From NCBI GenBank assembly GCA_963514005.1, contig OY740790.1:46376001-46440000 (forward strand): a stretch of DNA of 64,000 nt. The letters run 5' to 3'. The stretch is from Raja brachyura. Its lineage: Eukaryota. Both the position numbers and the translations under genes were made by a program. Shown piece by piece: positions 6,562-63,869 of this stretch (position 1 is the first letter of the stretch; each line of letters opens with the position of its first letter). A model generated the notes under the pieces. That model was not told the origin of the DNA and searched no databases. It saw only the letters and a list, made by a program, of their open reading frames with translations.

Positions 6562-6728
6562 CGGTAGACAAAGATGCTGGAGAAACTCAGCGGGTGAGGT
6601 AGCATCTATGGAGCGAAGGAATAGGTGACGTTTCGAGTCGAGACCCTTCTTCACACTGATATGGGGTGGGAGAGCGGGGGCATGAAGACCATTATTCCCA
6701 CCCTCCTATACCCCACATCAGTCTGAAG
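6562..6728 (-). mobile_element. Penelope-like pLTR fragment with partial fold-back
   Basis: GGTAGACAAAGATGCTGGAGAAACTCAGCGGG...GACGTTTCGAGTCGAGACCCTTCTTCAC, followed by an inverted piece ending CAGTCTGAAG. Confidence 0.75.
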
Positions 6729-6739
6729 CAGGGGCATTA

Positions 6740-7000
6740 TTTTATGAGGGGAAAGATTGAATAGTAACTGGAGGGGCATCTTTTTCACATAGGGAGGTGG
6801 GTATATGGAACAAGCTGCCAGAGGATATTTGAGGCAGGTACTATAACAACATTTAAAATAAATTTGGACAAGTACACAGATACGATACGGTTAGATGGAT
6901 ATGGATCAAACACAGGCAGATGGGACGAGTATAGATAGTGCATCTTGGTTGGCATGGACAGATTGGGCTGAAGCACCTGTTTCTATGCTGATTAACTCTA
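6740..7000 (+). mobile_element. CR1 3' tail fragment
   Basis: WNKLPE-coding stretch plus GGGCTGAAGCACCTGTTTCTATGCTG tail. Confidence 0.7.
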
Positions 7001-8351
7001 TATTACAATAACACAGTGAAATCCTAAAGTGGCTACATTTCACAAAGTGCTTGCAAGTGTGTCCAGCATAGGTTTATGTTATGTAACACAATAGTTTATT
7101 TATCTATTTCTTCATTTGTTCATTTTTAAGGATATGGGCGTCATTGACAACACCAGCATTTATATCCTATCCTTATCTGCCCATAGGAATGCGATACTGA
7201 ACTAATGACATACACATCCCCTCATAAAAATAAATACATTTTAAAAAGACAGCTTGGATGAGCTGAAATTTACAGACATGAGTGATGAGAAAGGCCAAAA
7301 TAACATTTCGATGAGTTTAGAGGTGAAGGAGGAATGTTTGAGCCTTTCACTGATATAAAGGCTGAATTATTGTATGGGCAAGCATCATTATGCAAGTGGT
7401 GGATCTTATATTGAACATGATATGATTTAGAGACCCAGTTCTACATGAATGCAATGCCTCTGGTGGTTAACTGTTAAGTTAATGCATAAGAATAAAAACA
7501 GCTATTATCTGTGCTCGGTTAATTGGAAGAGTTTTTTCTTGATTCTCCAATTGTTCAATTGCAAATAATATTTGCCATATTACTCTCTACAACACAAAGC
7601 AGAAATTGGCTTCTTTCCTATAGAAAAAAAATGAGCAGCTGTGTTCTAACACTGAGAAACATAAGCACAATATCAAGAGGAGAATGCTCATTGTGATCAG
7701 CTCAACTAATTAGAATTGTTGCAGGCTGTTAGTAAAGAAGTCCAGCCAATTCTAAGCATCTCGGAAAGGTTTCTTCTGTATCCAAAAAAAGCCATCACAG
7801 ATGGAATGCTGCAGCATATTTAGCTATCACAGCCTGAAGATGACATAAAGCTGACTGCAACAGTTGGACAAAATCCAGTAGGATGCAATAAGATGTGATG
7901 TGCCTGATCAATTTAGGTCAGTTCCCAATCTTGGTCGAAGTGGAATGCTGCACCTAATGTATTTATGCATTCTGGAGAACTGGACATTGCTTGCATTTGC
8001 TTTTTGCAGCCAACTGATCTGAGACACTGATGATGGTCATTCAAAATGATCCTCTTTTACCATTTTGGAGAGCTGATTCTACATTGACTCAAAGGCTAAG
8101 AAGGAATAGTGATATACTTCCAAGTTAGGAAGATGTGCTGGAGTATTGGCGTACTCAAGCTATTTCTGTCCTTTCCCTTTGTAGTGTCGGAGGTCATGGA
8201 TTTGGCACGTTCTCCTGAAGAAGCCCGAGGCTGATAGACAGGATTAATTGCAGTCACAAAATGTTGGTGGTGGAGACAATTACATTTAGACTTGCTCTGT
8301 AGATACTACAAAATCAAAGACCCAGTAGATTTTTAAATGATTACTCCTTAC

Positions 8352-8443
8352 CTGTGTGCCCTGGCAGCGGTGAATGCGGACGCGGCAGCGTTGGCGAGGT
8401 GCTCGAAGTCACAATTAGGCTCTTCCGGTTATTTGTACGGCAA
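8352..8443 (-). CDS. MAST2: Constitutive coding exon of microtubule-associated serine/threonine kinase (N-terminal region)
   Basis: Acceptor tgttttag and donor CAG|gtaagg; 92 nt, phase 2 to phase 1; translates [30 protein letters not shown](G). This nearly matches recalled MAST2 [39 protein letters not shown] and GHTG favour MAST2 over MAST1. Confidence 0.93.
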
Positions 8444-60518: not shown

Positions 60519-60731
60519 CTCCAGTGGAAAGGATTACAATGGGCTTGACAGCTGGAGCTGGTGAACTTACAGAAATTTGAAAAGATGCCCAATGCAGTGC
60601 AATGCTGAGAAAGTGGAGCACGAGTATTGCTGGGGACAGTGAGGTAGTGCATTTTGCTAGTTGGTGAAGGTGAAGAGATGCGATCAATGACACCATTTTC
60701 TTCAGAAAGGCAGTTTTCAGAGGGCCAGATT
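60519..60731 (-). CDS. MAST2: 213-nt frame-preserving (phase 2-2) alternative exon of the MAST kinase
   Basis: Acceptor ctttgttag and donor GAG|gtaagg; open frame IWPSENCLSEENGVIDRISSPSPTSKMHYLTVPSNTRAPLSQHCTALGIFSNFCKFTSSSCQAHCNPFHW+AG gives ...[10 protein letters not shown]. Resembles a recalled MAST2 isoform segment (...SPTS...LAIFLN...PLPWSCRTSNRK). Confidence 0.7.
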
Positions 60732-62919
60732 CTAACAAAGCATAGTAGTACAACAGAGAATCAATAACTCTGAGAATTTAATCTGCTCTTTTTTAAAATC
60801 CTCTACAAAATTTACCCTAAACTAATCAGCAGTTTAATCTGGCATTATAAACAGAAAAGTGAAAACAGTTAAAAAATCATATTCTAAATGCAAGATCAGT
60901 GTCAACTTGGGCACTTCGATGTTGAAAAGAAACAGTATTCTTAGGACAGAGGATTATCCGTAACCTTTAGGTTTAAAAAAAATTACAGATGCTTTGTGCT
61001 ACAACTTATATAAATATATTCCGTCCAACTACATTTTAACAGAATTAATAGGGAAAAAAAAAAATTGCAAGGTGGATAATTGCATTAAAAAGTCTTATAC
61101 AATCGAAATGCAAAAGACTGCAACTGCTGGAATCTTAAGCAAATCACAAACCACTGGAAGATCTCAGCTGGTTAGGCAGCGTCTGCAGTGGGAATAGACA
61201 GGTGATATTTCAGATTAGGATCTTTCTTCTGACGAGTCTTGTTTAAAACGCATGTACGTTTTACTTTTTTTAGCACTTGTGAATGTTTCTATGAAGAACA
61301 TGATTGAGCAAAAACGTACATCCATTTCAAACAGGACATTTAACTGTCAGATAAAAACCTTTAATTACTTCTTACAACTGTTTCCTCCCATAACGTGATG
61401 TGTCTGTTTTAATGCTTCAGAAAATGTTTGATTGCAAGAGAGCAAAACTTCAAAATGTATTATTAGATGAAGCTAATGTTCTCCAGTGAGTCTTGATCAA
61501 ATCCCCAAGTTCCTGATCTGAGCGGTGATGACCTGAGATGTTGACACCAGTTCCACGGAATCAGAGAATGGCAGGAGAAAAAATTGTTAAAACCAAGAAG
61601 AGCTGATAAAGTACAATTCTCCAGGTTGAGAATCAATAATAAGATTAATTTAAAAATAATCATCAAGAGGTTTTTGATGGGAAATTTCATAGCACAGACC
61701 TATTAAACCCATGGAATTTGGCCATGGATTATTGCACCTTTTCAGAGGAAAAAGAAAAAGAATGTAAAATACCTTTTCTTTTCCACTTTAAAAATCCTAC
61801 GGTTATCAAATAACATGTTCATATTACATTTTACCTCAGTTTGCAAAGCTTGGAATATGTCAGGGAATTAAGTATTCAAAAAGGAGTAATCAGCAAACTA
61901 AGAGTTCCTGTGGTCTTATGCATAGCAACTATTTGAGCTTCCAGCTTTGTCCAGACAGGAGATGAATGATACACAAATACTATTTAAAAACAAGAATAAA
62001 TCTTCAGCTTCAGTTATTGACAGCAGAATAATAACCAGCTTGGGGTATTGCACAATGATACGTAAGGAAGTAGTACTATTATATTAGGGTGGTGTTTTTA
62101 CACACATGTGATTCAGCAATTTTATTAAATACAAGCTCCTGAAAACAATTGAAACAATCTATGAAATGGTAAAGTAGTAGTGAGTTAAGATGGTAATAAT
62201 TATTAATATTAACTGTCTAAGGCTAGATCATAGAACTCATTTGCACATATTGAAGCAAGCAGAAAGAATGCTGGTATGTTTGATAATACTGGGTTGACAA
62301 GACATGATAAGTGATCTTGGATTTGGAATACAAAGACTTATCGAGCTAATGGCTCAAATCTACAGTGCTAAGAACTAAAATTTACAGCATGTGGAAATAT
62401 TAATTGTACAACGCACACTGGAAAATCGATTTAAACATTGGAGGAATAAGCTAGTGTTCATTTCCGTTCAACAGATTGCACATCATTCAAAACAGAGCTA
62501 AAAGTTCAGAATGAAATAGCTTTACAGCACCAAAAAAGTCTTCTATTAATAGTTGAGCCAGATATTTAAATATGCATGCGTTTAACAGACCCAAGGTTTT
62601 GATGGATTGCTTTAATCATCAGTATTTAAAGTTAGTATCAGCAAAGGATGTCGCCAAGAATTTCCTTATATCAGAATTGCAAATAGATCATCCAAGTTTG
62701 AATGGTTGACCATCTTGCCATTTATAACGATGATCATTAAATTCTTAGCTGATTAAACTATATACGTGTCAACAAATAATTAATTTCAACATCATATCAT
62801 CAATTTTACAATATGTAAATCCAAGCAGGGAAGTTCATTTTTTCTTCTAGTTTTTTCTTGCAGTACTCAATGACTTTTGCTCAAAATAATATTTTGACAG
62901 AGTTAAAGTATGAAGTACT

Positions 62920-63630
62920 ATGATACAAAAAGTGATGTAGGAACTCAGTGAATCAGGCAACATCTGGCCTCAGTGAATGAATAGATGACATTTTGGGTTG
63001 GGACCCTTCAGACTGATTGGATTGCGGGACGGAGGGGTGGAGAAAGCTGAAAATGAGTGGAAGGTTGGGATAATGACTCGCAAGTGATAGGTAGATACAG
63101 GTGAGGTGGGGGTGGGGGGGTAGGAAGAGGGGTGGGGGTTATTGGACTATGGGCCAAGTAAGTGACAAAGGCTAGAAAAGGTCTCCTTTCAGGCTGTCAG
63201 CTAAGGAAAGAAGTGAAGTTAAATGTAAAGCTGGAGGGAGAGATACAGGTAGAAGGAGAGAGAGGGGATGAGGAAAGAGAGGAGATAAAAATGTCTCGTA
63301 GAATAATCAGCAAATGAAAAATGTGGATCGCAGGGATGGGAGATGAGTATATCAATGAGGGGAAAGGAGGACTGTGACTGGGATGGTGGAAGAAATGTGT
63401 GCGCACCAGTCACATCACATCATTAATCACACATTCCTGTCTCCACCCCTTCCCACAGAGACCACTCCCTCTGCAACTCCCCGATTCGCTCAAAACCACC
63501 CCCGCCTCAGGCACTTTCCCCTGTAACCACAGATGTGGCATCTAAACTTTATTTCCTGCACAAGACCTGCTGAGTTGCTCCAGCACTTTGTTTTTTTGCT
63601 CAAGATTCCAGCATCTGCAGGTTCTTGAGT
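62920..63630. mobile_element. Old Penelope-like fragments in inverted arrangement
   Basis: Minus-strand pLTR (GGGACCCTTCAGACTGATTG), purine tract, then plus-strand DHSLCNS...GTFPCN and CCAGCATCTGCAG end. Confidence 0.65.
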
Positions 63631-63729
63631 CTCTTTTCATTGTAGTTATCACTTGGTCATTACTCAGAAAAAAAATGATGCGTATAACTAATGTTTCCAA
63701 ACTTACTGTCCATCTTCGAATGATGACTG

Positions 63730-63869
63730 TTTAAGAAGGAACTGCAGATGCTGGAAAATCGAAGGTAAACAAAAATGCTTGAGAAACTCAGCGGGTGAGG
63801 CAGCATCTATGAAGCAAAGGAAATAGAACGTGTCAGGTTCTATTTCCTGGACCCGAAATGTTCTATTTC
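63730..63869. mobile_element. Penelope 3'-end insert with scrambled 5' inversion and 16-bp TSD
   Basis: TSD CTTCGAAT(G/T)ATGACTG (63714-63729 and 63870-63885). Confidence 0.85.

What the first reader, a model, noticed from the sequence alone, without database searches (positions are those of the whole stretch)
6562..63869. Swarm of short Penelope-derived inserts carrying a minimal hammerhead ribozyme (retrozyme-like family)
Seen: about 15 pieces of one pLTR, many with the core CTGAAGA-A-GGGT(CTCG/TTCG/CTTG)(A/G)CCC-GAAACGTC/GTT (e.g. ~6625, ~10729, ~38303, ~49010, ~51225, 52054, ~52285, ~57940). In the cleanest copies stem II keeps pairing while the loop varies (G-U and UUCG variants). Helix III is just the palindrome ACGT followed by C, giving a GUC site. 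Known: Penelope-like pLTRs carry minimal type I hammerheads thought to cleave as dimers via a palindromic helix III, and an extra A after A9 is a natural hammerhead variant. Inference: 70-220-nt non-coding units are being mobilised as a SINE/retrozyme-like family. Minus-strand copies (~49010, ~51225, ~57940) lie inside the MAST pre-mRNA and could cleave introns. Stem I looks weak (about 2 bp), so monomer activity is doubtful.
Basis: partly seen in the sequence, partly recalled or inferred. Interest (0 to 1): 0.75.

Follow-up and report, generated by a model that had tools for sequence, protein, structure and literature searches.

The report
Penelope retrotransposon stubs carrying hammerhead motifs
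This stretch of a skate-like fish's MAST2 kinase gene is littered with short end-pieces of a known kind of jumping gene (Penelope-like), each with a mostly decayed hammerhead ribozyme motif; they are likely dead-end copying by-products rather than a self-spreading family, and the one unusual point is that many stop right at the ribozyme's front edge.

Summary
The repeat family is real: 19 loci in 64 kb (nhmmer: 24 hits, 0 in a reversed control). It is the 3' end of a Penelope-like element (PLE), probably Neptune. At two loci the minimal hammerhead directly follows a GIY-YIG endonuclease C-terminus. Copies show the known PLE marks: two 3' ends 37 nt apart (the "tail"), head-to-head inverted arms, and 13-16-nt target-site duplications at 4 loci, one confirmed by an empty paralogous site.

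The retrozyme/SINE reading is not supported. There are no tandem units and no pol III boxes, and helix I is 2 bp. The core is conserved among source lineages (shared variants 2.5% vs 13.9% downstream, p=6e-6) but decays neutrally after insertion (private changes 5.5% vs 5.2%, p=0.85).

The copies are not random truncations either. 10 of 15 arms that reach the core end within 7 nt upstream of it, and only 1 of 24 ends at the cleavage site. Best reading: dead-end cDNAs primed at the PLE's internal RT start sites on uncleaved RNA, ending at a fixed point that is likely the RNA's 5' end. Intron cleavage of MAST2 is unlikely. Known kind of element; modest interest.

The parts
6563..6735 (-). PLE end, head-to-head: minus arm 6563-6684 (core has C3G; short 3' end; reaches about -30) plus a short plus arm 6692-6733 (about -32 to +10)
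10428..10816 (+). Longer PLE 3' piece: GIY-YIG C-terminus (10428-10612), pyrimidine-rich pLTR, hammerhead core at 10729 (C15.2A), short 3' end
11551..11620 (+). Tail-only piece with long 3' end and a 13-nt inverted mini-arm; no ribozyme
24656..25567 (+). Decayed PLE ORF fragment: RT C-terminal part, decayed cysteine linker, GIY-YIG; no hammerhead found after it
32674..32883 (.). Older head-to-head pair; both arms end about 4 nt upstream of the core; the plus arm has the long tail; cores broken
36800..37150 (-). Older copy with about 230 nt of upstream pLTR and long tail; core nominally complete but with transition changes (G-U pairs, TA in place of CG)
37645..37773 (.). Head-to-head pair: minus arm ends at -2, plus arm starts at +15; cores broken
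38165..38409 (.). 217-nt head-to-head insert (long-tail minus arm, short-tail plus arm) between 14-nt target-site duplications; predicted to fold into one hairpin (-131 / -146 kcal/mol)
23067..23080 (-). Empty paralogous site of the 38165-38409 insertion, with one copy of the duplicated target
39395..39466 (+). Decayed arm starting at about +16, inserted in a repeat whose paralogue at about 21.0-21.1 kb lacks it
48930..49718 (-). Longest PLE piece: GIY-YIG domain (49327-49718), pLTR with (CT)n, an internal inverted duplication of the ribozyme (49050-49085, +), then an intact core at 49037-49010
51161..51253 (-). Young 93-nt copy with intact core; starts exactly at C3; short 3' end; 98% identical to 52050; 9-nt near-duplication overlapping its 5' end (not above background)
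51570..51638 (+). Old, weak arm
   Evidence: E 8e-6
52033..52160 (+). Young 102-nt insert (52046-52147) with intact core and GUC site, between exact 13-nt target-site duplications
52260..52380 (+). Head-to-head insert inside a Tc1-type transposon end, replacing about 16 nt of target; core broken; its short opposite arm starts at +30, near the cleavage site
56397..56477 (-). Old divergent arm starting at about -1
57830..57984 (-). 125-nt long-tail insert (57845-57969) between exact 15-nt duplications; the target shares 7 nt with the sequence upstream of the core; A-C mismatch in stem II
59903..60064 (-). Decayed GIY-YIG fragment without ribozyme
61110..61235 (-). Old long-tail arm starting at about -2; core broken
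62920..63290 (-). Older copy with about 250 nt of upstream pLTR; 3-nt deletion in the core
63555..63630 (+). Tail-only piece, long 3' end
63714..63885 (-). 140-nt long-tail insert with fold-back pieces at its 5' junction, between 16-nt duplications (1 mismatch); core incomplete
8352..8443 (-). Host MAST2 internal coding exon; 31 of 31 residues identical to a skate MAST2 protein (P0048)
28203..28276 (-). Alternative first coding exon of a short MAST isoform (23 of 24 residues match P0058)

Best explanation
The pieces are 3'-end stubs of an endonuclease-bearing Penelope-like retrotransposon (likely Neptune clade), likely written into the genome by the parent element's own reverse transcriptase/GIY-YIG protein and not copied again. 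Shown: link to the GIY-YIG ORF, two 3' ends 37 nt apart, inverted arms, AT-rich target-site duplications, an empty site, a 5'-end hotspot at -7..0 of the core, and neutral decay. Inferred from work on the Anolis element PAc: the protein nicks one or both target strands and starts cDNA at either of two internal start sites on uncleaved element RNA. One primed strand gives a simple stub; two give a head-to-head hairpin with one short and one long end. Inferred, least certain (about 0.4 on its own): most cDNAs end just upstream of the ribozyme because the template RNA begins there (the TCAGT at -5..-1 resembles an initiator; consensus recalled). The stubs would then be run-off products from the RT start site nearest the RNA's 5' end. 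The hammerhead is a passenger, kept by selection in the parent lineages and without function in the stubs.
For: GIY-YIG C-terminus directly upstream of the pLTR and core at 10428-10816 and 48930-49718. Relatives carry RT + GIY-YIG, and 113 of 121 have a C-x(2-5)-C-xx-C linker. A zebra-shark protein reads through into the same kind of core (P0274). About 18 arms end at one of two 3' sites (read by eye). Duplications of 13-16 nt at 4 of 17 loci searched (18 searches), against a best background score of 10 in 150 random pairs; empty site confirmed. Hotspot: 10 of 15 arms, P about 3e-12 under constant termination and 0.009 in the harshest variant; 1 of 24 near the cleavage site. Private substitutions 9/163 in the core vs 39/750 downstream (p=0.85); shared variants 4/163 vs 104/750 (p=6e-6). 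Literature: tail, inverted copy and 5' truncation are standard PLE features (PMC8557442). PAc starts RT internally at two sites, extends both strands, uses uncleaved RNA and needs RNA beyond the RT start sites (PMC11167929), which a stub lacks. Solo and opposite-strand min-HHRs were already attributed to truncated PLEs (PMC4209133).
Against: No genome, RNA or read data were available, so the RNA 5' end is untested. In Drosophila Penelope the start site lies 46 nt upstream of a 75-nt intron, and it is the intron's 3' end that abuts helix I. The pyrimidine tract plus CAG here could therefore be a splice acceptor rather than a start site. One young subfamily (51162, 52050, 57881, 38217) is seen only as short copies, never attached to the ORF in this window. 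Rotifer pLTRs alone sufficed to move unrelated DNA in trans (PMC3846280). The PAc data are from the Poseidon clade, not Neptune. The 5' offsets were read by hand from one window.
Confidence: 0.75

Rival explanations
1. Same origin, but the 5' hotspot is a reverse-transcription block or template switch on a longer RNA: at the folded or protein-bound ribozyme, at the small palindrome TCAG-T-CTGA that overlaps C3, or at a splice acceptor. This replaces only the last step of the best explanation.
For: The palindrome is predicted to self-pair at -7.9 kcal/mol, against -1.7 for the helix III duplex. Both arms at 32674-32883 end on it, and 52046-52049 looks like a snap-back. Palindromes at inverted junctions are described in rotifer PLEs, and the Drosophila intron ends at helix I.
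Against: At 38299, 37645 and 52285 the arm ends at the hotspot while the opposite arm ends elsewhere (+6, +15, +30), so palindrome annealing is not needed. No shared exon-1 sequence precedes the core in the short copies. Stem II is only 4 bp and is rarely formed in predictions (probability 0.00-0.28).
Confidence: 0.35
2. One reading: a non-autonomous SINE/retrozyme-like unit of about 95-130 nt is transcribed from its own source copies and re-mobilised in trans by the PLE protein.
For: Both ends are clustered. Two 98%-identical copies share the same 3' end. One subfamily is seen only short. Non-LTR retrozymes are reported as PLE pLTR derivatives (bioRxiv 10.64898/2026.07.22.740005), and pLTRs can act in trans.
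Against: No tandem units; the only same-strand pair under 800 nt apart is separated by transposon DNA and has one broken core. No pol III boxes. The 5' ends vary over 8 nt, the hotspot is shared by divergent subfamilies, and both tail ends and inverted arms occur. With one ribozyme near its 5' end a unit could not be released as a circle (inference). PAc needs RNA downstream of the copied part.
Confidence: 0.12
3. The stubs are ordinary random 5' truncations, and the hotspot is an artefact of detection.
For: PLEs are heavily 5'-truncated. The seed profile began about 6 nt upstream of the core, and the upstream pLTR is low-complexity, so extensions could be missed.
Against: Eight of the ten hotspot ends abut a duplication or an opposite arm (one of these duplications, at 51162, is not above background). 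The flanks upstream of hotspot ends are 32-55% pyrimidine, against 63-84% in copies that do extend. The excess survives a fourfold higher background rate.
Confidence: 0.07
4. Sense-oriented intact copies cleave the MAST2 pre-mRNA and affect its splicing or level.
For: Two strictly intact cores (49037, 51253) and one nominal core (36912) lie on the MAST2 strand, within the inferred long-isoform intron.
Against: Helix I pairing probability is 0.0 in all 7 copies folded, and 51162 has lost the upstream strand. The 49037 core is buried in a hairpin, and the two intact cores are 2.2 kb apart. There is no strand bias and decay is neutral. Published min-HHRs show no monomer cleavage and low dimer cleavage; the PAc ribozyme needs the PLE protein.
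Confidence: 0.04

Closest known systems
Neptune-clade (C-terminal EN+) Penelope-like elements with minimal type I hammerheads in the pLTR (Cervera & de la Pena 2014, PMC4209133; Craig et al. 2021, PMC8557442)
   Same: RT - cysteine linker - GIY-YIG order; min-HHR with an extra nucleotide after A9, G10.1-C11.1 and palindromic 15.2-16.2; 30-40-nt tail; inverted 5'-truncated arm; many solo motifs from truncated copies.
   Different: No full-length copy in the window. Stem II is 4 bp and helix I 2 bp, shorter than in the schistosome motifs. A sharp 5'-end pile-up at the core's edge did not appear in the passages I read.
PAc (Poseidon from Anolis carolinensis; Frangieh et al. 2024, PMC11167929)
   Same: Two 3' ends separated by the tail; AT-rich targets; both strands extended; uncleaved RNA as template.
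   Different: Other clade. In PAc the ORF starts at stem II. Here the conserved ATG lies about 50 nt downstream of C3 and is open for 26-27 codons in 3 of the 6 long-tail copies translated; its use as the ORF start is untested.
Non-LTR retrozymes of animals (Cervera & de la Pena 2020, PMC7229834; Li, Clavereau & Pollet 2026 preprint)
   Same: Short, non-coding, type I hammerhead, derived from PLE pLTRs; dispersed monomers also occur in those families.
   Different: Retrozymes are head-to-tail tandems, mostly with canonical hammerheads, and make circular RNA. Here all copies are solo or head-to-head, the motif is minimal, and the ends are PLE tail ends.
Hammerhead-bearing SINE-like repeats of Schistosoma (as summarised in PMC6765202)
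   Same: Short dispersed repeat with a hammerhead.
   Different: Those have their own promoter upstream of the ribozyme. No A/B box pair was found here.

Membership tests
EN+ Penelope-like element | ORF with RT followed by C-terminal GIY-YIG endonuclease | tested here: met
   Window fragments 24656-25567, 49327-49718 and 10428-10612 align with the C-terminal half of RT+GIY-YIG proteins. Pfam gave no direct hit on the decayed window fragments.
EN+ Penelope-like element | pLTR with hammerhead downstream of the ORF | tested here: met
   Core about 120 nt after the ORF end at 10729 and about 230 nt after it at 49092.
EN+ Penelope-like element | Optional 30-40-nt tail and inverted 5'-truncated arm | tested here: met
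   Two 3' ends 37 nt apart; inverted arms at 8 of 19 loci.
EN+ Penelope-like element | Insertion with short target-site duplication | tested here: met
   13-16 nt at 4 of 17 loci searched; empty paralogous site for one; one insertion with a target deletion instead.
Neptune clade | Zn-finger-like cysteine linker between RT and EN | tested here: inconclusive
   Present in 113 of 121 relatives, including the closest shark proteins. The only window copy has lost a cysteine. Nematis shares the linker, but only Neptune and Poseidon were reported from vertebrates.
Neptune clade | RT phylogeny groups with named Neptune elements | not tested
   No named reference sequences and no intact RT core in the window.
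Minimal type I hammerhead (PLE min-HHR) | CUGANGA and GAAA boxes, extra nucleotide after A9, stem II, palindromic 15.2-16.2, NUH site | tested here: met
   Complete in 3 young arms and nominally in a fourth, of 20 scored. Rfam gave no hammerhead hit in the window.
Minimal type I hammerhead (PLE min-HHR) | Self-cleavage as a dimer or with protein help | not testable with these tools
   Folding predicts helix I probability 0 and a dimer fold (helix I not included) at -12.7 against an MFE of -27.3 kcal/mol; a bench test is needed.
Non-LTR retrozyme | Head-to-tail tandem units, at least two consecutive complete hammerheads | tested here: not met
   None among 22 TRF rows; no same-strand pair of intact cores within 2 kb.
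Non-LTR retrozyme | Canonical helix I (about 6 bp) with loop contacts | tested here: not met
   Only two adjacent helix I pairs.
Non-LTR retrozyme | Expression as linear and circular monomer RNA | not testable with these tools
   No read evidence was obtained.
SINE | Internal pol III promoter (A and B boxes; consensus recalled) | tested here: not met
   0 of 74 A-box matches (up to 1 mismatch) lie in a ribozyme-tail arm; 1 of 34 B-box matches does, antisense, through a private change; no tRNA gene.
SINE | Own source gene with fixed 5' end, independent of the autonomous partner | tested here: inconclusive
   5' ends cluster but vary over 8 nt and cross subfamilies; one subfamily is seen only short. 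Needs the genome.

The most novel reading that the evidence does not exclude
A roughly 95-130-nt unit made only of the hammerhead and the PLE tail has become its own non-autonomous retroposon in skates: tandem-free, without a pol III promoter, and mobilised in trans by the Neptune protein. It would be a PLE-dependent SINE analogue at very high copy number, with the 51162/52050/57881 subfamily as its youngest branch.
Probability: 0.12. Interest if true: 0.6.

Novelty: new member of a known kind. Interest (0 to 1): 0.3.

Why it matters
The element type, its ribozyme and its scattered solo copies are all published, so the main finding is ordinary. Two points are useful. First, the 5' ends pile up immediately upstream of the intact core and almost never at the cleavage site. 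That is genomic support for the in vitro result that uncleaved RNA is the PLE template, and it offers a simple reason why genomes hold thousands of solo minimal hammerheads. A genome-wide end histogram plus 5'-RACE would test it directly. Second, the core is conserved among source lineages but not after insertion, which places the ribozyme's still-unknown function in the parent element. At 19 loci per 64 kb, a genome of 2-2.5 Gb (size recalled) would hold several hundred thousand stubs; that is an extrapolation from one window.

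Tried and rejected
No genome is held for this window, so there is no genome-wide consensus or census. Rfam: no hammerhead match; only chance miRNA-type hairpins below gathering score. Metagenome contig scans with two family patterns found 0 loci. 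Sequencing runs: no RNA holder listed, which is no evidence either way; no reads or contigs were laid, so presence/absence in relatives, expression and RNA ends remain open. Stem II covariation is not above shuffles, so I rejected it as evidence of selection. Core versus downstream within the 9 younger arms was not significant (5/99 vs 46/453, p=0.13). Whether the 26-codon frame in the tail is the ORF start could not be searched directly; N-termini of full-length relatives showed no tblastn match to it. Sigma-70 and tRNA scans were empty. Earlier findings of this scan: 0 by sequence, 0 by place, and the 8 shown of 358 'Penelope hammerhead' notes concern other genomes and other questions. Six literature searches turned up no paper on skate PLE stubs or on a 5'-end hotspot at the ribozyme. 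The library lacks most subscription journals, Repbase/Dfam entries and Lunse et al., and the figure supplements of PMC11167929 (Fig. S2, genome coverage of the pLTR) could not be seen and may already show such a pile-up. Considered and rejected: HHR-cleaved RNA as main template (1 of 24 ends near +28); spliced RNA as template (no shared exon upstream of the core); 51162 as parent of 52050 (52050 carries parental bases that 51162 lacks).

Full report
Setting. The window is intronic DNA of a MAST2 kinase gene on the minus strand of a cartilaginous fish. An internal exon at 8352-8443 is 31/31 identical to a skate protein (P0048) and 30/31 to shark and chimaera proteins. An alternative first coding exon at 28203-28276 splices in frame to it. 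The exon that precedes 8443 in the long isoform was not found in the window by tblastn or exact 6-mers, so it likely lies beyond 64000. Copies above about 28.4 kb are therefore intronic only for long isoforms (inference; no RNA data). No genome was available.

Observation. The hammerhead core pattern occurs 7 times against 1.0 expected. A profile from 10 window copies gives 24 hits and none in the reversed window; I dropped one self-palindromic hit and one weak hit (17289). With blastn arms this makes 19 loci. Of 20 arms scored, three young ones (48951, 51162, 52050) are strictly intact, and an older one (36825) passes only through G-U pairs and a TA palindrome. The extra A after A9 is invariant (15/15). 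Stem II covariation does not exceed shuffles. Helix I has two adjacent pairs and a predicted probability of 0.0 in all 7 copies folded.

Parent element. At 10428-10816 and 48930-49718 the core follows a pyrimidine-rich pLTR that follows the C-terminus of a GIY-YIG domain; a longer ORF fragment lies at 24656-25567. The 94-residue window fragment finds 633 relatives; long ones carry RVT_1 and GIY-YIG. The best hits of a linked protein are shark and ray proteins, and 113 of 121 relatives have the cysteine linker. P0274 reads through into the same type of core. This fits Neptune; an RT tree was not made.

Insertion anatomy. About 18 arms end at one of two 3' positions 37 nt apart (read by eye), the PLE tail. 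Eight loci have an inverted arm. At 38165-38409 one arm has the long end and the other the short end. Duplications of 14, 13, 15 and 16 nt flank the inserts at 38179, 52046, 57845 and 63730 (4 of 17 loci, 18 searches; best background score 10 in 150 random pairs). The 38179 insertion has an empty paralogous site near 23070 with the target once. The 52260 insertion sits in a Tc1-type end and replaces about 16 nt. These match the published PLE pattern (PMC8557442, passages; PMC3846280, passages; PMC8969392, passages) and the PAc mechanism: two internal RT starts, both strands extended, AT-rich targets, uncleaved RNA as substrate, and RNA needed to +172, beyond the starts (PMC11167929, parts 1-2 of 4 and passages; its supplementary figures were not visible).

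The 5'-end hotspot. I tabulated 24 arms by hand. Left out: the two ribozyme copies inside the 48930-49718 inversion (both at -2/-3, merged into one long locus), the 6692 arm (-32), the fold-back pieces at 63853-63869 and the 17289 hit. Fifteen arms reach the core; 10 end at -7..0 and 5 run on (-30, -230, -250, -300, -630). Under constant termination P is about 3e-12. With a fourfold background, three arms removed and a 50-fold correction it is 0.009. Only one arm starts near the cleavage site (+30 against +28). The hotspot occurs in subfamilies 55-98% alike, with both tail ends and with inverted partners, which points to a property of the parent RNA or RT rather than one short master gene. I favour run-off at the RNA 5' end (about 0.4) over a block or switch at the ribozyme, the overlapping palindrome or a splice acceptor (about 0.35). 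Against my choice: in Drosophila the start lies 46 nt before a 75-nt intron whose end abuts helix I (PMC2377424, passages; PMC4209133, parts 1-2 of 4).

Selection. In 15 full arms (11 core positions, 51 downstream columns), private substitutions are 9/163 against 39/750 (p=0.85), and shared variants are 4/163 against 104/750 (p=6e-6). The core is kept among source lineages and decays freely after insertion. The arms were found with a profile that includes the core, which would bias towards core conservation, not against it.

Retrozyme or SINE. Animal retrozymes are head-to-tail tandems with two or more complete hammerheads (bioRxiv 10.64898/2026.07.22.740005, parts 1-3 of 5, supplements not seen; PMC7229834, passages). 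None exists here. No pol III box pair is present (consensus recalled). What keeps the reading alive is one young subfamily seen only as short copies, and rotifer evidence that pLTRs can act in trans: 0.12.

MAST2 cleavage. Twelve arms are sense and eleven antisense to MAST2 (p=1.0). The two intact sense cores are 2.2 kb apart; one is buried in a predicted hairpin and the other lacks the upstream helix I strand. Published min-HHRs do not cleave as monomers and cleave poorly as dimers (PMC6765202, passages, which cites Lunse et al., seen only as a reference title). I put this at 0.04.

Novelty. Cervera and de la Pena already describe min-HHRs in Neptune, Poseidon and Xena elements, mostly as solo motifs from truncated PLEs and sometimes as opposite-strand pairs. 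The 2026 preprint reports retrozymes in its one chondrichthyan genome. PMC12602865 (passages) added nothing on structure. Six searches found no description of this skate family or of the 5' pile-up, within the limits of the library. Verdict: a new member of a known kind, interest 0.3, with the 5'-end hotspot as the one lead worth a genome-wide check.

Noticed in passing
window 6563-6735: Both arms of this head-to-head locus stop at about -30/-32 upstream of the core, a second possible stop point (it would be branch-point distance if the CAG is a splice acceptor). One locus only.
   Followed up: partly
window 63729-63806, 38179-38256, 32802-32882: A conserved ATG about 50 nt after C3 opens a 26-27-codon frame up to the long tail end in 3 of the 6 long-tail copies translated; possibly the start of the PLE ORF, as in other PLEs where the pLTR and tail hold the first codons.
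   Followed up: partly
window 28203-28276 (-): Conserved alternative first coding exon of MAST2, shared with a sixgill-type shark protein (P0058).
   Followed up: partly
window 787-2007 (+): 406-residue open LINE-type reverse transcriptase frame (RVT_1 and ALKBH8_N hits); related decayed pieces near 4.9-5.3, 8.9-9.7 and 53.3-55.0 kb.
   Followed up: no
window 52165-53404, 55076-55690, 13987-14580: Tc1-type transposon pieces (HTH_Tnp_Tc3_2 hit at 52760-53401); one end carries the 52260 PLE insert.
   Followed up: partly
window 19685-20047 and 20245-20543: Weak tyrosine-recombinase (Phage_integrase, E 0.004, below cut-off) frame next to an 80-nt, 98% inverted repeat; possibly a DIRS-type remnant (label recalled).
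   Followed up: no
window 12618-13870 and 45112-46254: Two 86-96% similar copies of a roughly 1.2-kb repeat in opposite orientation, 31 kb apart; family not identified.
   Followed up: no
window 34451-35113 (-): 220-residue open frame without a Pfam hit; by recall it resembles the C-terminus of a hAT-type transposase.
   Followed up: no
window 47135-47270: Small element with about 30-nt terminal inverted repeats (MITE-like).
   Followed up: no
window 22933-23253 and 37978-38654: Two copies of an unidentified repeat in opposite orientation; one holds the 38179 PLE insert, the other the empty site.
   Followed up: partly
proteins P0274, P0276, P0302, P0123: Several database proteins from sharks and rays appear to be gene-prediction products built from this PLE: read-through into the pLTR (P0274), PLE sequence under host gene names (P0276, P0302), and a LINE RT joined to the PLE nuclease (P0123).
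   Followed up: no
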